From the IMG/VR virus record IMGVR_UViG_2693429700_000017: 2,875 nucleotides of DNA; one strand, written 5' to 3'. This document shows, one piece after another, positions 1-2,875 of this stretch (the stretch's first letter is position 1; the number at the start of each line of letters is the position of its first letter). A model generated the notes under the pieces. It did not search any database. It saw only the letters and a program-made list of their open reading frames with translations, and was not told where the DNA came from. The translations under genes were made by a program, and so were the position numbers. The stretch is from a virus. Lineage: Duplodnaviria; Heunggongvirae; Uroviricota; Caudoviricetes.

Positions 1-97
1 CCTTTGCGGTAAATTTACATCGCACTCCTCTTGTGCCATAGTAATCGGGCACTGGCAAAATCCAGTGCCGGGATTGGCGTCCCGGATTACTAAAAGG
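1..97. repeat. 97-bp direct repeat, copy 1 (identical to 2779-2875); may extend beyond the window edge
   Basis: Base-by-base comparison of 1-97 with 2779-2875 shows 97/97 identity. Contains the palindrome GTAAATTTAC (9-18) and a hairpin GGCACTGG-CAAAAT-CCAGTGCC (48-69). Confidence 0.9.
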
Positions 98-104
98 CGC
101 ATTC

Positions 105-124
105 ACCGCGCAAGCGGTTTTTTT
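105..124 (+). terminator. Candidate intrinsic terminator immediately 3' of the repeat
   Basis: Stem ACCGC (105-109), GCAA tetraloop (110-113), stem GCGGT (114-118), followed by a run of 7 T (118-124). The stem is only 5 bp, so the call is moderate. Confidence 0.45.
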
Positions 125-281
125 ATGCGTATAGCACGGCCACATTCGTATTATGGTGGGCTGTGTGGGGGCACCGAAAGGTGCGCCGGGTCCTTTTAGC
201 CGGTTACGCCAACCCTGCACAGTTCACCACCAACCGATTGGCGTCGGTAGTGGTGATTAACCAGACTAAAAGGTAACCACT

Positions 282-977
282 ATGACAGCTACAAAAAGCA
301 CGTCCATTTTTTCTTTCGAATCCCAAGCCGATATACGGGTAATCGTCATTAATGGTGAGCCATGGTTTATCGCTTCAGATGTTTGTCGGGCTATAGGCAT
401 AGCAAACCATCGAGATGCTGTTCGAAAACTTGATGATGATGAGAAGGGCGTCGCTTCAACCGACACCCCTGGCGGTGAGCAAGAATCGATCATCATCTCC
501 GAGTCAGGCCTCTACACACTGATCCTCCGCTGCCGCGACGCAGTGACACCAGGCACTATCCCCTACCGCTTTCGTAAATGGGTTACAGGTGAGGTTCTTC
601 CTCAGATCCGCCGCACCGGAAGTTACATTAAAAACTCGCTCCCGCAGGAAGAACGCATAAAGATGGTTGCCGACCAGGTAGCCAACGCCACGGCGTCAGC
701 AGTGATAAAGGCGATGAAGATAGAGAACAAAACCTACAGCGCCCCGCTGAAGCCAGGCTACCGCAGCCTGATTCACTCGCCGTCTGGTGTTCTCGGCCTG
801 ACGGAGAACTCACTGCTGATGAATCTGCTGAACCAGTTACAGGAAGACGGGCACGACGTATCGGGCGCGGCGGCGGAGCTGACCACCATGTTCTGCTACA
901 TCGTCGGTGTGAGCAAATGCCTGCGTGATATCCAGACGCACGCGGAGTACATCAACGACAAAGCAGGGTTCTTCTGA
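282..977 (+). CDS. Bro-N domain protein (phage antirepressor-like, KilA-N/Bro-N superfamily) with an uncharacterised C-terminal half
   Basis: 231-aa ORF with AAGG Shine-Dalgarno (270-273) 8 nt upstream of ATG. The N-terminal ~110 aa carry the hallmark Bro-N pattern: F-x-F, VINGEPWF-x-A-x-DV, LDDDEKG, GG-x-Q, ISESGLY-x-LIL, FRKWVTGEVLPQIRRTGSY. The C-terminal ~115 aa have no motif I recognise. Assignment is from remembered family consensus, not a search. Confidence 0.8.
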   Translation: MTATKSTSIFSFESQADIRVIVINGEPWFIASDVCRAIGIANHRDAVRKLDDDEKGVASTDTPGGEQESIIISESGLYTLILRCRDAVTPGTIPYRFRKWVTGEVLPQIRRTGSYIKNSLPQEERIKMVADQVANATASAVIKAMKIENKTYSAPLKPGYRSLIHSPSGVLGLTENSLLMNLLNQLQEDGHDVSGAAAELTTMFCYIVGVSKCLRDIQTHAEYINDKAGFF

Positions 978-985
978 CGGGCGGT

Positions 986-1010
986 GGCACAGGGATGTGC
1001 CTTTAAATAA
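986..1010 (+). terminator. Weak candidate terminator or attenuator after ORF1
   Basis: Perfect hairpin GGCACA-GGGA-TGTGCC (986-1001) followed by TTTAAATAATT. The T tract is interrupted, so it is probably leaky at best. Confidence 0.3.
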
Positions 1011-1021
1011 TTCTGTACAGA

Positions 1022-1050
1022 TTGCAGACTGGGGCTGAATAGCGTACTAT
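1022..1050 (+). promoter_or_regulatory. Candidate sigma70 promoter for ORF2 (TTGCAG-17 nt-TACTAT)
   Basis: -35-like TTGCAG (1022-1027) and -10-like TACTAT (1045-1050) with a 17-nt spacer. Hexamer match only; no experimental support. Confidence 0.3.
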
Positions 1051-1101
1051 TACCTCACGGGTGATCCATAGCGATTAGGCACCGATACAGGAGGAGCCCA
1101 C

Positions 1102-1134
1102 ATGAGAAAATTTGACGAGTACGAAGGCGTTTAA
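1102..1134 (+). CDS. Possible 10-codon leader micro-ORF (MRKFDEYEGV) with a strong Shine-Dalgarno
   Basis: AGGAGG at 1089-1094, 7 nt upstream of ATG 1102; stop TAA at 1132-1134. It lies in the ORF2 5' leader, upstream of the palindrome at 1149-1167. Very short, so it could be fortuitous. Confidence 0.2.
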   Translation: MRKFDEYEGV

Positions 1135-1148
1135 CATTCGGATAGTTC

Positions 1149-1167
1149 ATTTACCCTAATGGTAAAT
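1149..1167. promoter_or_regulatory. Operator-like palindrome, site B: ATTTACC-CTAAT-GGTAAAT
   Basis: Perfect 7-bp inverted repeat with a 5-bp spacer, 39 bp upstream of the ORF2 start. Same half-site as the palindromes at 2682-2698 and 2775-2792. Confidence 0.5.
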
Positions 1168-1205
1168 CCCGCTTAAAGAAGCATCTATATATTATGAGGT
1201 GATGT

Positions 1206-1841
1206 ATGCCACAACAACTGCTGAATCCGGCAAAGGTAACTGAGGTTTTCGCTCATCTGAACGAAACTCCAGACAACCGCGCCCTGTATTCAGAGTTAGT
1301 GAACGGCAACGATGTCACATCTGATGTCAAAGGCGTTTCTCTGGCTCCTGGATACCGCGTTGTCCGTGTAGACGATCGTAAGAAAGGCGAGATTCCACAG
1401 GCGCACTTTGAACTGTCATTGATAAATGACCTCACCGAAGAGGTAGTGTATTACAATCGTGTCATTATCCAGCCTGACAGCTATCTTAACTGCCGTCCTG
1501 TCACGCAGATATTGGTATGGAGAACCCAGAAGCCTAAGCATCGTGCTGTGCTTCATGATTTCGCCGGCATCATCTTCATGAACTACCTCTTGGAACGGTA
1601 CGATATCATCGTGTCTGATCGCAACCAGACTCATGAAGGCATGTCGTTCTGGCAGGCTCGCATGTATGACGCACTGGAACTTGGCCTCCACCTCTATGGT
1701 TACGACATGATGACATGCGAGCTGATAGAGATGAATAACGAGGAAGAGCTTGAGAAAGGTGAAACCTGGTTGTGGGGTGATGCGGAAAACTTCCAAAACA
1801 GATTGGCCATAATTTCAAAGCATAAGCTGCCAATAAAATAG
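1206..1841 (+). CDS. Hypothetical protein, 211 aa, no recognisable domain
   Basis: Uninterrupted 636-nt ORF with GAGGT Shine-Dalgarno (1196-1200) 5 nt before ATG, and a canonical intrinsic terminator directly downstream. No transmembrane segment, no signal peptide and no catalytic motif I can name. Acidic C-terminal stretch (EMNNEEELEKGE). Confidence 0.75.
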   Translation: MPQQLLNPAKVTEVFAHLNETPDNRALYSELVNGNDVTSDVKGVSLAPGYRVVRVDDRKKGEIPQAHFELSLINDLTEEVVYYNRVIIQPDSYLNCRPVTQILVWRTQKPKHRAVLHDFAGIIFMNYLLERYDIIVSDRNQTHEGMSFWQARMYDALELGLHLYGYDMMTCELIEMNNEEELEKGETWLWGDAENFQNRLAIISKHKLPIK

Positions 1842-1849
1842 TTCTTTAA

Positions 1850-1870
1850 GCCCGCGACGCGGGCTTTTTT
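1850..1870 (+). terminator. Rho-independent terminator of ORF2
   Basis: GCCCGCG-A-CGCGGGC perfect GC-rich inverted repeat (1850-1864) followed by TTTTTT (1865-1870), 9 nt after the ORF2 stop codon. Confidence 0.75.
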
Positions 1871-1884
1871 GTGTCTGCGGATTC

Positions 1885-1896
1885 CCGCCCGGGCGG
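1885..1896. repeat. GC-only 12-bp palindrome CCGCCCGGGCGG between the two terminators
   Basis: Perfect palindrome read directly from the sequence; function unknown. Confidence 0.3.
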
Positions 1897-1910
1897 CGGT
1901 GGCATTCGTT

Positions 1911-1934
1911 AAAAACAAGGCCGCAAGAGCGGCC
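1911..1934 (-). terminator. Rho-independent terminator of ORF3 (minus strand)
   Basis: GGCCGC-AAGA-GCGGCC (1919-1934) read on the minus strand is followed by TTGTTTTT (complement of 1911-1918). The stem overlaps the ORF3 stop codon by 1 nt. Confidence 0.6.
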
Positions 1935-2662
1935 TAGCGTTTCGCTTTGTGCTCGTCCCAGCACGTTTTGCACCATGCCATTAAGCCATCCGCATTTTGA
2001 TTATTAGGGTAAAAGCTGGTTCGTTTTCTGCGGACATTACAAATTGGGCACCACTTCATATGACGTGTATTCTTTGGGCCATCGAGACACCTTGCACACC
2101 ACTTAGTCAATCCATCTGGATTTTTTGACGATTTCCTGAATTTTTCATATGGAAGGTTTATTCTGCATCGCAAACACTGCTTGCGGGCACTTGAAACTTC
2201 GTTAGCTGATTCTTCTTTTGACGGCGATACAGAAGGTATTCTTGCTGGCTCTGATACTGCCTGAGGTGCTTTTCTAGGTGACTGAGACGATACGTCATCA
2301 CCAGGGAATCTTCCATGATATGCCGGACGCGTTAACACCCCAGGTGGAAGCTCTGCTGTAAATGGCTTTGGCTGAATCAGTTGCCTCTCTTTTGCTAACT
2401 CCTGCTGTTTATAATATGTCTGGATTACCGCACTATCATAAGCAGAAGGTGCGGAAATATTAGGCGCATTACCTCCAGTTTTTTGAAACTGAGTAGAGGT
2501 GTGTTCTATCACCTGTGTACGATTAATCGTTATCTCCCCATCTTCGGTCTTTATCGTTTTGTTATGATTAACGACCGTACGATCAGAGATCTTAGTCTTG
2601 TTCTGGTTGATAACGTAAATAATCACCGCAACCACACCAACAACTATCCAGAAAACTTCCAT
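1934..2662 (-). CDS. Membrane-anchored protein with two tandem C4 zinc-ribbon-like repeats (hypothetical)
   Basis: 242-aa ORF with GAGGAA Shine-Dalgarno 5 nt upstream of the ATG (minus strand). N-terminal hydrophobic helix (EVFWIVVGVVAVIIYVI) followed by basic residues. Pro/Ser-rich low-complexity linker. The C-terminal ~72 aa hold two 30-residue repeats with identical spacing C-x2-C-x8-F-x7-DGL-x2-WC-x2-C. This gene is the most AT-rich in the window (hand counts about 35-47% GC in 60-nt samples). Confidence 0.75.
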   Translation of the reverse strand: MEVFWIVVGVVAVIIYVINQNKTKISDRTVVNHNKTIKTEDGEITINRTQVIEHTSTQFQKTGGNAPNISAPSAYDSAVIQTYYKQQELAKERQLIQPKPFTAELPPGVLTRPAYHGRFPGDDVSSQSPRKAPQAVSEPARIPSVSPSKEESANEVSSARKQCLRCRINLPYEKFRKSSKNPDGLTKWCARCLDGPKNTRHMKWCPICNVRRKRTSFYPNNQNADGLMAWCKTCWDEHKAKR

Positions 2663-2681
2663 TGCTTTTCCTCACAATAAC

Positions 2682-2698
2682 ATTACCTTAAAGGTAAT
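2682..2698. promoter_or_regulatory. Operator-like palindrome, site C: ATTACC-TTAAA-GGTAAT
   Basis: Perfect 6-bp inverted repeat with a 5-bp spacer, 20-36 bp upstream of the ORF3 start codon. Same half-site as sites A and B. Confidence 0.5.
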
Positions 2699-2719
2699 AT
2701 CTTGCTTTCAGGTGATCAA
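2691..2719 (-). promoter_or_regulatory. Candidate ORF3 promoter (minus strand TTGATC-17 nt-TACCTT) overlapping site C
   Basis: Minus-strand -35-like TTGATC (complement of 2714-2719) and a weak -10-like TACCTT (complement of 2691-2696). The -10 is poor and sits inside the palindrome; low confidence. Confidence 0.2.
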
Positions 2720-2750
2720 GCGTTAAACGCAATCAACCAAATACGGTTGA
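2720..2750. promoter_or_regulatory. Two further palindromes in the region upstream of ORF3: GCGTT-A-AACGC and TCAACC-N6-GGTTGA
   Basis: Perfect inverted repeats at 2720-2730 and 2733-2750, read directly. They could be regulator sites or RNA hairpins. Confidence 0.3.
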
Positions 2751-2774
2751 TTTTAATATTTCTTCGCGTTTATC

Positions 2775-2792
2775 ATTACCTTTGCGGTAAAT
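2775..2792. promoter_or_regulatory. Operator-like palindrome, site A: ATTACC-TTTGC-GGTAAAT, straddling the start of the terminal repeat
   Basis: Half-site ATTACC (2775-2780), 5-bp spacer, half-site GGTAAAT (2786-2792). The right half and spacer recur at window positions 3-14. Overlaps the palindrome GTAAATTTAC. Confidence 0.45.
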
Positions 2793-2875
2793 TTACATCG
2801 CACTCCTCTTGTGCCATAGTAATCGGGCACTGGCAAAATCCAGTGCCGGGATTGGCGTCCCGGATTACTAAAAGG
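2779..2875. repeat. 97-bp direct repeat, copy 2 (identical to 1-97)
   Basis: 97/97 identity with window positions 1-97; it ends exactly at the window edge, so the true repeat may be longer. Confidence 0.9.

What the first reader, a model, noticed from the sequence alone, without database searches (positions are those of the whole stretch)
282..1841. Three-gene module resembling a phage-derived accessory cassette, with the Bro-N protein as a possible sensor or regulator
Bro-N domains are DNA-binding modules typical of phage antirepressors and regulatory proteins. Here one is fused to an unknown C-terminal half and is followed in the same direction by the orphan ORF2, with a structured 228-bp spacer carrying a weak hairpin and a candidate promoter. 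Together with the convergent membrane protein and the shared operator motif, the architecture looks like a self-contained regulatory or defence-like module rather than housekeeping genes. The function is entirely hypothetical.
Basis: partly seen in the sequence, partly recalled or inferred. Interest (0 to 1): 0.6.

Follow-up and report, generated by a model that had tools for sequence, protein, structure and literature searches.

The report
RNA-controlled prophage antirepressor plus swappable cargo

Summary
The ORFs, the Bro-N domain and the shared palindrome are real. The three-gene module is not.

- **ORF1 (282-977)** is 229/231 identical to the antirepressor ORF4 of phage vB_EcoP_ZX5, which has been tested by overexpression.
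The C4 loop pairs with ORF1's Shine-Dalgarno sequence. Across 40 loop variants the loop and its targets covary (0 of 20,000 permutations).
- **TTACC-N5-GGTAA** is not private to the module. It occurs 19 times in the whole prophage against 0.73 expected, including the cI/cro region, so it is probably the master repressor's operator.
- **ORF3** is linked to the promoter region of the next cassette, not to ORF2.
- All three genes occur together in 2 of 5,426 genomes.

The residual interest lies in ORF2 and the cargo slot.

The parts
1..12 (.). 3' part of a repressor operator (TTACCTTTGCGGTAA, complete at 2776-2790), directly upstream of the -35 of the leader promoter
   Evidence: The motif is enriched in the whole prophage, including the cI/cro intergenic region.
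14..42 (+). Leader promoter, TTTACA-17-CATAGT with TG. The predicted start near 49 coincides with position 1 of the isrK model.
   Evidence: Consensus match only; not shown experimentally.
49..124 (+). isrK-like small RNA. It carries the upstream C4 target sites (UUGGCGU 74-80, CUAAAAGG 90-97) and its own terminator (105-124).
   Evidence: Rfam RF01394 77.9 bits (gathering score 50); RF03163 c4-a1b1 at 36-88, 45.1 bits.
149..234 (+). C4 antisense RNA. Its antisense elements are CCUUUUAG (192-199, variable loop) and ACGCCAA (206-212).
   Evidence: Rfam RF01695 77.7 bits (gathering score 45). Loop-target covariation.
238..273 (+). Downstream C4 target sites: UUGGCGU (238-244) and CUAAAAGG (266-273). 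The second covers the Shine-Dalgarno sequence and ends 8 nt before the ORF1 ATG.
   Evidence: Read directly from the sequence. Own-versus-cross complementarity 8.0 against 4.2 nt over 40 loop variants.
282..977 (+). ORF1, the antirepressor. The Bro-N domain is at nt 330-602. A shared antirepressor C-terminal module is at nt 672-974.
   Evidence: Pfam; phrog_130 'anti-repressor Ant' 3e-63; 229/231 identical to ZX5 ORF4 (PMC9782041); C-terminus shared with a P22_AR_N antirepressor.
986..1001 (+). Small conserved hairpin GGCACA-GGGA-TGTGCC after ORF1, possibly a weak terminator
   Evidence: It did not pass the terminator scan.
1022..1064 (+). Putative cargo promoter TTGCAG-17-TACTAT (1022-1050), abutting an operator site (1050-1064). 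The site is degenerate here (GGTGA) but exact in most other cassettes.
   Evidence: Conserved about 70 nt after the Bro-N stop in cassettes with different cargo; site with one mismatch. Promoter activity is inferred.
1103..1135 (+). Mini-ORF MRKFDEYEGV with an AGGAGG Shine-Dalgarno sequence; significance unknown
   Evidence: Sequence. The same block is present in a DUF4760-cargo cassette.
1151..1165 (.). Exact repressor operator TTACCCTAATGGTAA, 41 nt upstream of ORF2
1206..1841 (+). ORF2, a cargo gene of the uncharacterised family phrog_1349, with a predicted GNAT-like fold
1848..1876 (+). Intrinsic terminator of the ORF2 transcription unit
1874..1935 (.). Conserved 62-nt block that recurs as the right boundary of the cargo slot. 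It contains the ORF3 terminator (1935-1918, minus strand).
1934..2662 (-). ORF3: an N-terminal membrane anchor and two C-terminal CxxC...WCxxC zinc ribbons (nt 1961-2176). Family phrog_6762, function unknown.
   Evidence: It is always contiguous with the following leader promoter.
2683..2697 (.). Exact repressor operator TTACCTTAAAGGTAA, 21-35 nt upstream of the ORF3 start codon
2776..2875 (+). Start of the next cassette: operator (2776-2790), promoter (2792-2820) and an isrK copy cut off by the window end (2827-2875)

Best explanation
**What the window is.** It is one repeat unit of the anti-immunity region of a phiV10/epsilon15-like (Uetakevirus-type) E. coli prophage. This region lies between the tailspike gene and the internal virion protein genes.

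**Unit 1 (1-977): a P1-immI/Gifsy-1-type riboregulated antirepressor operon.**
- A promoter at 14-42 transcribes an isrK-like RNA. Transcripts either stop at the terminator (105-124) or read through into the C4 RNA (149-234) and ORF1.
- The two single-stranded elements of C4 pair with UUGGCGU and CUAAAAGG just upstream of ORF1. This occludes the Shine-Dalgarno sequence and keeps the antirepressor untranslated.
- The same two target sequences occur in the isrK part of the leader. There they can mask or titrate C4.
- When ORF1 is made, it antagonises the prophage's non-cleavable Rep-type repressor and pushes the phage towards lytic growth.

**Unit 2 (about 1022-1876): an independently acquired cargo gene.** ORF2 sits in a slot that holds different genes in different phages. 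It has its own operator-flanked putative promoter and its own terminator. It encodes a solitary GNAT-fold protein, probably an acyl-CoA-dependent acyltransferase of unknown target.

**Unit 3 (ORF3, minus strand): a separate accessory gene.** It belongs to the divergent promoter region of the next cassette.

**Common control.** All three promoter regions carry TTACC-N5-GGTAA, the operator motif of the prophage's master repressor. The genes share a regulon, not a function.

**Shown:** the RNA family matches, the complementarity and its covariation, the operator enrichment, the identity to the tested ZX5 protein, and the variability of the slot.

**Inferred:** translational occlusion by C4, Rep binding to the motif, a direct ORF1-Rep contact, and ORF2 enzymology.
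For: **Riboregulators**
- isrK scores 77.9 bits and C4 77.7 bits. The leader folds far better than shuffles (z=-5.5), with the C4 loops paired to the upstream targets.
- The C4 loop and both of its targets covary. The window has CCUUUUAG/CUAAAAGG. The two tandem cassettes of NZ_CP148401 have CCUUUGUAG/CUACAAAGG and CCACUUAG/CUAAGUGG.
- Over 40 distinct loops, the mean longest complement in a locus's own leader is 8.0 nt at the SD site and 7.4 nt at the upstream site. Across different loci it is 4.2 and 3.6 nt. None of 20,000 permutations reached the observed values.
- The downstream target usually ends about 8-11 nt before the start codon.

**ORF1**
- It matches phrog_130 'anti-repressor Ant' over its full length.
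- It is 229/231 identical to ZX5 ORF4. Overexpression of ORF4 lowered the prophage titre from 1e9 to 1e6 and repressor mRNA by 75%. ZX5 has the same isrK and C4.
- The C-terminal 101 aa are 84% identical to the C-terminus of TL-2011b gp42. That protein is a P22_AR_N antirepressor lying next to an Arc-like repressor and a sar RNA.

**Phage context**
- The locus lies between the tailspike and internal virion protein genes of a prophage inserted between yfgI and guaA.
- The prophage repressor has an HTH but no S24 peptidase domain. It is homologous to SPC32H Rep, PDB 5D50_A, E=4e-42.

**Operator**
- The motif occurs 19 times in the prophage against 0.73 expected. The sites include the cI/cro intergenic region and the stretch downstream of cI.

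**Modularity**
- The variable cargo includes DUF4760, YafO, DUF1902 and unknown proteins.
- ORF2 homologues occur in a Dickeya epsilon15-like prophage without Bro-N, a Pseudomonas P2-like prophage next to the portal gene, a Yersinia myovirus prophage, and Erwinia and Photorhabdus chromosomes.

**Precedents**
- Gifsy-1 has isrK-C4-AnrP.
- APSE phages have isrK, c4 and a BRO-N gene.
Against: - No transcript or binding data exist for this locus.
- The window has no Icd-like leader ORF, unlike P1 or Gifsy-1 orf45. C4 must therefore act directly on ORF1's ribosome-binding site, which is untested.
- In Gifsy-1 the short IsrK RNA activates translation. The net sign of isrK's effect here is therefore unknown.
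- The ZX5 evidence is overexpression only. No ORF1-Rep interaction has been shown.
- This phage family already has a small LexA-controlled Ant. The specific role of a second antirepressor is unclear.
- The operator at the leader promoter lies upstream of the -35, centred near -43. It may not repress that promoter.
- ORF2's GNAT assignment rests on a predicted structure. It has no Pfam or PDB sequence match and lacks the canonical Q/RxxGxG/A motif.
Confidence: 0.85

Rival explanations
1. ORF1, ORF2 and ORF3 form one self-contained regulatory or defence-like module in which the Bro-N protein senses or regulates and the other two genes act as effectors.
For: - The three genes are adjacent and all have the same palindrome upstream.
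- The exact combination recurs in two complete E. coli genomes.
- Other occupants of the ORF2 slot include toxins such as YafO.
Against: - All three genes occur together in only 2 of 5,426 genomes. Part of the window occurs in 986, ORF3 in 129 and ORF2 in 13.
- ORF2 homologues occur alone in unrelated prophages and in chromosomes.
- ORF3 is linked to the following leader, not to ORF2.
- The palindrome is prophage-wide.
- PADLOC finds nothing.
- ORF1 is a tested antirepressor.
Confidence: 0.04
2. ORF1 and ORF2 are a functional pair. The antirepressor operon deliberately co-expresses a GNAT-fold enzyme that acts with it at induction, for example by acetylating the repressor or a host factor.
For: - The two genes have the same orientation, and no strong terminator lies between them.
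- ORF2 is always found after a Bro-N gene in the 13 E. coli genomes inspected or implied.
- An operator lies upstream of ORF2.
Against: - The slot holds many unrelated genes behind near-identical Bro-N genes.
- The same ORF2 follows different Bro-N alleles: WP_047089533, WP_230905453 and the IAI39 'Ant'.
- The Dickeya epsilon15-like prophage has ORF2 in the same slot with no Bro-N gene.
- ORF2 has its own promoter-like element and terminator.
Confidence: 0.06
3. ORF2 is a GNAT-type toxin of a toxin-antitoxin pair, like TacT or AtaT. This would fit a slot that elsewhere carries YafO toxin cassettes.
For: - Other occupants of the slot are YafO toxins with a small upstream ORF.
Against: - No antitoxin-sized ORF is adjacent. 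Only a 10-codon mini-ORF lies upstream and a terminator lies downstream.
- The best structural matches are NatD, Hat1 and the Rv1916 GNAT domain, not the toxins.
- Solitary chromosomal copies are conserved in Erwinia and Photorhabdus.
Confidence: 0.07
4. The window is a small autonomous circular element, such as a mini-plasmid or satellite. The identical 97-nt ends would suggest this.
For: Positions 1-97 are identical to 2779-2875.
Against: - The window has no replication, integration or packaging gene.
- The same sequence is colinear inside chromosomal prophages. NZ_CP148401 has two tandem cassettes, which reproduces window 500-2871 at 99.8% identity.
- The repeat is the conserved leader of successive cassettes.
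Confidence: 0.03

Closest known systems
vB_EcoP_ZX5 ORF4 anti-repressor (Uetakevirus; PMC9782041) and phiV10 gp23 'putative anti-immunity protein'
   Same: - ORF1 is 229/231 identical to ZX5 ORF4.
- It occupies the same genome position after the tailspike and the small Ant gene.
- It has the same isrK and C4 leader.
   Different: - ZX5 and phiV10 carry other genes in the cargo slot and have no ORF3.
- The passages of the ZX5 paper that I read describe no RNA control of ORF4.
Phage P1/P7 immI region (c4 antisense RNA - icd - ant)
   Same: - A C4 RNA lies inside the leader of an antirepressor operon.
- Target sites lie both upstream and downstream of C4, and the downstream site covers a ribosome-binding site.
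- Specificity is set by the loop sequence, as in P1/P7 heteroimmunity (P1 biology from the summary in PMC7313666 and from general knowledge).
- Operators of the master repressor are dispersed over the genome.
   Different: - There is no Icd-like leader ORF, so the target covers the antirepressor's own SD.
- The antirepressor is of the Bro-N type, unrelated to P1 Ant.
- An isrK-type terminator is present in the leader.
Gifsy-1 isrK - orf45/STnc1160 - anrP locus (PMC4825925)
   Same: - The same two Rfam families occur in the same order in front of an antirepressor gene.
- The short terminated RNA and the read-through mRNA come from one promoter.
   Different: - AnrP has an ORF6N domain and no detectable similarity to ORF1.
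- Gifsy-1 uses translational coupling through orf45.
- The locus lies next to the Q antiterminator gene, not next to tail genes.
SPC32H Rep/Ant switch (PDB 5D50)
   Same: The host prophage encodes homologues of both proteins: Rep (E=4e-42) and the 85-aa Ant (E=5e-47). The Ant gene has a LexA box and lies just upstream of this region.
   Different: Both genes lie outside the window. ORF1 is a second antirepressor, unrelated in sequence and controlled by RNA rather than by LexA.
GNAT (GCN5-related N-acetyltransferase) superfamily, for ORF2
   Same: - The viral structure library gives uncharacterised phage proteins first, then NAT_SF-annotated ones.
   Different: - ORF2 has no sequence-level match to any GNAT Pfam model or PDB chain.
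- The canonical acetyl-CoA motif is not recognisable.

Membership tests
C4 antisense RNA-controlled antirepressor operon (P1 immI type) | C4 RNA with the family's sequence and secondary structure | tested here: met
   RF01695, 77.7 bits against a gathering score of 45, full length 1-87.
C4 antisense RNA-controlled antirepressor operon (P1 immI type) | Upstream target sites (a1/b1) complementary to C4 | tested here: met
   UUGGCGU (74-80) and CUAAAAGG (90-97) are complementary to 206-212 and 192-199. RF03163 scores 45.1 bits, just under its gathering score of 46.7, and isrK RF01394 scores 77.9. Covariation.
C4 antisense RNA-controlled antirepressor operon (P1 immI type) | Downstream target sites (a2/b2) overlapping the ribosome-binding site of the first ORF | tested here: met
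   UUGGCGU (238-244) and CUAAAAGG (266-273) are present, and the second ends 8 nt before the ATG. Own-versus-cross complementarity is 8.0 against 4.2 nt, with 0 of 20,000 permutations reaching it.
C4 antisense RNA-controlled antirepressor operon (P1 immI type) | Icd-like leader ORF translationally coupled to ant | tested here: not met
   No ORF lies between C4 and ORF1. Icd-like 63-65-aa ORFs do follow C4 in other loci.
C4 antisense RNA-controlled antirepressor operon (P1 immI type) | C4 is processed from the leader transcript and blocks translation in vivo | not testable with these tools
   Needs Northern blots, RNase P assays and reporter fusions.
isrK sRNA locus (Gifsy-1 type) | isrK RNA with its own intrinsic terminator, followed by an antirepressor gene on the read-through transcript | tested here: met
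   RF01394, 77.9 bits. The terminator is at 105-124. ORF1 lies downstream with no further terminator before it.
isrK sRNA locus (Gifsy-1 type) | The short IsrK RNA activates translation of the long isoform through orf45 | tested here: not met
   There is no orf45 equivalent. Activation itself is not testable here.
Bro-N domain proteins (PF02498) | A match to the Bro-N profile above the curated cut-off | tested here: met
   76.7 bits against a cut-off of 25.6, residues 17-107.
Phage antirepressor (functional class) | Antagonises the cognate repressor and promotes lytic development | not tested
   Not tested on this sequence. The 99% identical ZX5 ORF4 reduced lysogeny when overexpressed (PMC9782041). 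Direct repressor binding has not been shown.
Known anti-phage defence systems (PADLOC-DB v2) | Any of the three proteins matches a defence-system model | tested here: not met
   No hit at E<=0.1 for ORF1, ORF2 or ORF3.
GNAT acetyltransferases (ORF2) | GNAT fold | tested here: met
   [not shown]
GNAT acetyltransferases (ORF2) | A sequence-profile match or the acetyl-CoA-binding motif Q/RxxGxG/A | tested here: not met
   No member of the 41-sequence alignment hits any Pfam family significantly (best E-value 0.068, none of them a GNAT model). None of the 120 listed homologues carries a Pfam domain. The PDB profile search found nothing. The motif is not visible in the beta4-alpha3 segment.
GNAT-toxin/antitoxin pairs (ORF2) | An adjacent small antitoxin gene | tested here: not met
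   No antitoxin-sized ORF flanks ORF2 on its strand: the only + strand ORF of 30 aa or more in the spacer is a 37-aa frame (925-1038) that overlaps the end of ORF1. Solitary copies occur elsewhere.

The most novel reading that the evidence does not exclude
The slot immediately downstream of the riboregulated antirepressor in phiV10/epsilon15-like prophages may be an unrecognised hotspot for phage-competition genes, each with its own promoter controlled by the prophage repressor. Under this reading ORF2 is a new single-gene, GNAT-fold effector: a defence, exclusion or counter-defence acyltransferase switched on at infection or induction.

Support is by location only:
- ORF2 homologues occupy moron positions in four unrelated prophage types. 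One of these is next to the portal gene Q of a P2-like prophage, and gene Q bounds one side of P2 moron position 1.
- Other occupants of the slot are toxins and membrane proteins.
Probability: 0.25. Interest if true: 0.5.

Novelty: new member of a known kind. Interest (0 to 1): 0.25.

Why it matters
As stated, the finding is ordinary. It is a prophage antirepressor locus whose protein has already been tested and whose RNA regulators are curated Rfam families.

Three points have modest value:
1. The isrK/C4 riboregulator can be assigned to the Bro-N antirepressor of Uetakevirus-type coliphages. The covariation over 40 specificities is a clean natural mutagenesis of the C4-target pairing.
2. Annotated 'Ash family' and 'hypothetical' CDSs in these phages overlap the RNA genes and are probably mis-annotations.
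3. The slot behind the antirepressor is a recombination hotspot. Its occupants, including the uncharacterised GNAT-fold family of ORF2, are cheap candidates to screen for roles in phage-phage competition.

Tried and rejected
- **Sequence searches for ORF2 found no annotated relative.** I tried Pfam on ORF2 alone and on 41 family members. I also tried a PDB profile search and a profile search of 5.8 billion proteins. Only structure prediction linked ORF2 to GNAT.
- **PADLOC gave nothing usable.** It found no hit for the three proteins. For eight alternative cargo proteins it returned only one chance-level Cas8b match (E=0.0092).
- **There is no credible LexA box in the window.** One site with one mismatch was found, which is the chance expectation. 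SOS control of ORF1 is therefore rejected. The family's LexA box lies outside the window, upstream of the small Ant gene.
- **The structured spacer is rejected** (z=+0.24).
- **A Trp-leader-like hit at 1765-1872 is chance** (21.6 bits against a gathering score of 41). It merely overlaps the ORF2 terminator.
- **The circular mini-element idea is rejected** (see rival explanations).
- **AnrP of Gifsy-1 is not a homologue of ORF1.** It has an ORF6N domain and BLASTP finds nothing.
- **Some resources were unavailable.** The afdb50 fold library was not available. The two SPC32H primary papers (PMC3807360, PMC4983836) are not held. The published Rep operator sequence could therefore not be compared with TTACC-N5-GGTAA.
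- **tblastn of ORF2 against 50,697 phage records gave one weak hit**. The family is poorly represented among isolated phages.
Full report
**1. What is in the window**

The six-frame ORF list confirms three genes:
- ORF1 at 282-977 (+), 231 aa.
- ORF2 at 1206-1841 (+), 211 aa.
- ORF3 at 1934-2662 (-), 242 aa.

ORF1 has a Bro-N domain at residues 17-107 (PF02498, E=2.2e-21).

Window positions 1-97 are identical to 2779-2875. The window therefore begins and ends in the same sequence.

The palindrome TTACC-N5-GGTAA has three exact sites (1151-1165, 2683-2697, 2776-2790) and one site with one mismatch (1050-1064). The chance expectation is 0.04.

The 228-nt ORF1-ORF2 spacer folds no better than shuffled sequence (z=+0.24). 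It does contain a small conserved hairpin at 986-1001.

**2.

Rfam finds two RNA genes upstream of ORF1:
- An isrK RNA at 49-124 (77.9 bits, gathering score 50), with its own terminator at 105-124.
- A C4 antisense RNA at 149-234 (77.7 bits, gathering score 45).

A promoter-like site, TTTACA-17-CATAGT at 14-42, would start transcription near 49, which is position 1 of the isrK model.

C4's two single-stranded elements are CCUUUUAG (192-199) and ACGCCAA (206-212). Their complements occur at two places:
- Upstream in the isrK part: UUGGCGU (74-80) and CUAAAAGG (90-97).
- Downstream: UUGGCGU (238-244) and CUAAAAGG (266-273).

The last site covers ORF1's Shine-Dalgarno sequence and ends 8 nt before the ATG.

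The leader at 43-290 folds far better than shuffles (z=-5.5). In that fold the upstream targets are paired to the C4 elements.

This is the arrangement of the P1/P7 immI region and of the Gifsy-1 isrK-STnc1160-anrP locus (PMC4825925). I confirmed isrK and C4 in front of anrP in Gifsy-1 itself. The same trio of isrK, c4 and a BRO-N gene has been noted in APSE phages (PMC7313666).

**3. Test of the RNA-target pairing**

In E. coli NZ_CP148401 two cassettes lie in tandem. Their C4 loops and both of their targets differ in a compensatory way:
- CCUUUGUAG with CUACAAAGG.
- CCACUUAG with CUAAGUGG.
- The window, for comparison, has CCUUUUAG with CUAAAAGG.

I then collected 120 viral contigs with the conserved isrK core and found 40 distinct C4 loop sequences. 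I measured the longest perfect complement of each loop.

| Site | Own leader (mean) | Other loci's leaders (mean) | Highest permuted mean |
|---|---|---|---|
| SD site | 8.0 nt | 4.2 nt | 5.2 nt |
| Upstream site | 7.4 nt | 3.6 nt | 4.8 nt |

None of 20,000 permutations reached the observed values.

The downstream target ends about 8-11 nt before the start codon of the first ORF in most loci. That ORF may be a Bro-N protein, another Ant-type protein, or a 63-65-aa protein that I take, from recollection of P1 Icd rather than from a test, to be Icd-like. The leader is thus a portable riboregulator with many specificities. The window holds one of them.

**4. ORF1 is a known antirepressor**

- PHROGs assign the whole protein to phrog_130 'anti-repressor Ant' (3e-63).
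- ORF1 is 229/231 identical to ORF4 of phage vB_EcoP_ZX5. Overexpression of ORF4 lowered the prophage titre from 1e9 to 1e6 and repressor mRNA by 75% (PMC9782041). ZX5 has the same isrK and C4.
- phiV10 annotates the orthologue as a 'putative anti-immunity protein'.
- The 'unknown' C-terminal half (residues 131-231) is 84% identical to the C-terminus of TL-2011b gp42, and the last 76 residues are identical. The N-terminus of gp42 is the P22 antirepressor domain. gp42 lies next to an Arc-like repressor and a sar RNA.

The C-terminal module is thus shared by antirepressors with different N-domains in this phage group. I infer that it is the part that addresses the common repressor.

**5. Genomic context**

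In complete E. coli genomes the locus lies in a roughly 40-kb prophage between yfgI and guaA. It sits between the tailspike gene and the internal virion protein genes. The prophage has epsilon15/phiV10-type structural genes.

The prophage repressor has an HTH but no S24 peptidase domain. It is homologous to SPC32H Rep (PDB 5D50_A, E=4e-42).

Just upstream of the region lies an 85-aa gene with a perfect LexA box. It is homologous to SPC32H Ant (5D50_E, E=5e-47).

The family therefore relies on antirepressors for induction, and ORF1 is a second one, controlled by RNA. The window itself has no credible LexA box.

**6. The operator is prophage-wide**

TTACC-N5-GGTAA, allowing one mismatch, occurs 19 times in the prophage against 0.73 expected. 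The sites include:
- Two in the cro/cI intergenic region.
- Two directly downstream of cI.
- Others in front of early and accessory genes.

It is therefore most likely the Rep operator. I could not read the SPC32H papers to compare the published operator.

The three genes of the finding share a regulon with the rest of the phage. They do not share a private switch.

**7. There is no three-gene module**

Genome counts among 5,426 E. coli genomes:

| Sequence | Genomes |
|---|---|
| Any part of the window | 986 |
| ORF3 | 129 |
| ORF2 | 13 |
| All three (at least 80% of the window) | 2 |

Behind near-identical Bro-N genes the next gene varies. It can be any of:
- a DUF4760 protein;
- a YafO toxin with a small upstream ORF;
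- a 287-aa membrane protein;
- a DUF1902 protein;
- one of several unknown proteins.

The conserved sequence stops at about 1062 or 1147. It resumes at a 62-nt block (1874-1935) that recurs as the right boundary of the slot.

About 70 nt after the Bro-N stop, most cassettes have a conserved promoter-like element, TTGCAG-17-TACTAT, abutting an exact operator. In the window this is 1022-1064 with a degenerate operator, followed by a second, exact operator at 1151-1165. The cargo thus appears to have its own repressor-controlled promoter, with possible read-through from ORF1.

ORF3 is always contiguous with the following leader promoter. In single-cassette prophages it lies upstream of Bro-N and diverges from it. 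It is convergent with ORF2 only where cassettes are tandem, which is the arrangement the window reproduces (window 500-2871 is 99.8% identical to NZ_CP148401).

**8. ORF2**

ORF2 belongs to phrog_1349, of unknown function. The family has more than 190 members of about 210 aa in Enterobacterales and Pseudomonas. None of the 120 listed carries a Pfam domain.

Homologues occur in several unrelated settings:
- In the same slot of a Dickeya epsilon15-like prophage, without a Bro-N gene.
- Next to the portal gene of a Pseudomonas P2-like prophage. The portal gene Q bounds one side of P2 'moron position 1' as defined in PMC3573123.
- Among the tail genes of a Yersinia myovirus prophage.
- As solitary chromosomal genes in Erwinia and Photorhabdus.

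The viral structure library returns uncharacterised phage proteins of about 190 aa first, then NAT_SF-annotated proteins.

No sequence-level link to GNAT was found, and the canonical acetyl-CoA motif is absent. I commit to 'solitary GNAT-fold cargo protein, probably an acyltransferase, target unknown'. A role in phage-phage competition is a hypothesis based on location only.

**9. ORF3**

ORF3 has an N-terminal membrane anchor, a Pro/Ser-rich linker and two CxxC...WCxxC zinc ribbons. These resemble the zinc-binding N-termini of EndoVII/HNH and Lar-like proteins.

It belongs to phrog_6762, of unknown function. Few isolated phages have it. In Aeromonas phage phiARM81mr a homologue directly follows cI. 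Its function remains unknown. It is independent of ORF1 and ORF2.

**10. Verdict**

The locus is a new, well-supported member of the C4/isrK-controlled antirepressor class, and its protein is already characterised. The only open question of some interest is what ORF2 and the other occupants of the cargo slot do.

Noticed in passing
L003 4993-5342 (NZ_AP041805.1 2782792-2783141), just outside the window's equivalent: A perfect LexA box (CTGTATAAATATACAG, 5047-5062) and a Rep-type operator (4993-5007) precede an 85-aa gene homologous to the SPC32H antirepressor Ant (PDB 5D50_E, E=5e-47). The prophage repressor matches SPC32H Rep (5D50_A, E=4e-42). The phage therefore has two antirepressors, one controlled by SOS and one controlled by RNA.
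   Followed up: partly
L002 7562-7743 and 10328-10512; L130, L058, L112, L066: Many prophages of this type carry two isrK-C4-BroN cassettes, tandem or convergent. In L002 the two C4 loops have different specificities. TL-2011b (L005) adds a P22-type sar RNA/Arc/Ant module next door. The region seems to accumulate antirepressor modules. Why one phage needs several is unexplained.
   Followed up: partly
L133 2672-2785 (ZX5 'ash family protein'); L004 4099-4166 (phiV10 'similar to SF0880'): Annotated protein features overlap the C4 and isrK RNA genes. They are probably mis-annotations of RNA genes as CDSs.
   Followed up: partly
window 1103-1135: A ten-codon mini-ORF (MRKFDEYEGV) follows a consensus AGGAGG Shine-Dalgarno sequence. 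The same block occurs in a cassette whose cargo is DUF4760 (L095). It could be a leader peptide or a remnant.
   Followed up: no
window 2776-2790 (equivalent to -2..12) relative to the predicted transcription start at 49: The operator next to the leader promoter lies just upstream of the -35, centred near -43. That is the position of a class II activator site, like lambda OR2 at PRM. Rep might activate isrK/C4 synthesis in lysogens rather than repress it. This is untested.
   Followed up: no
L135 2438-3142 (Aeromonas phage phiARM81mr): A 29.5%-identical homologue of ORF3 lies 19 nt downstream of the CI repressor gene on the same strand. That position is typical of lysogeny-expressed exclusion genes.
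   Followed up: no
L136/L137 5001-5672; L138/L139; L140/L141; L006-L008: ORF2 homologues occupy moron positions in unrelated prophages. One lies next to the portal gene of a Pseudomonas P2-like prophage and one among the tail genes of a Yersinia myovirus. Others are single-gene chromosomal insertions: between ihfA and a btuE-like gene in Erwinia, and in a Photorhabdus island between T6SS genes and an RtxA toxin gene (L006/L007).
   Followed up: partly
window 1874-1935: A 62-nt block containing a GC-rich hairpin recurs at about 95-97% identity as the right-hand boundary of the cargo slot in many loci with different cargo. It may be a recombination boundary.
   Followed up: partly
window 1-97 and 2779-2875: The window's ends are identical. 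This could reflect true tandem cassettes, as in NZ_CP148401, or an assembly-graph cycle through the repeated leader. The window alone cannot distinguish the two.
   Followed up: partly
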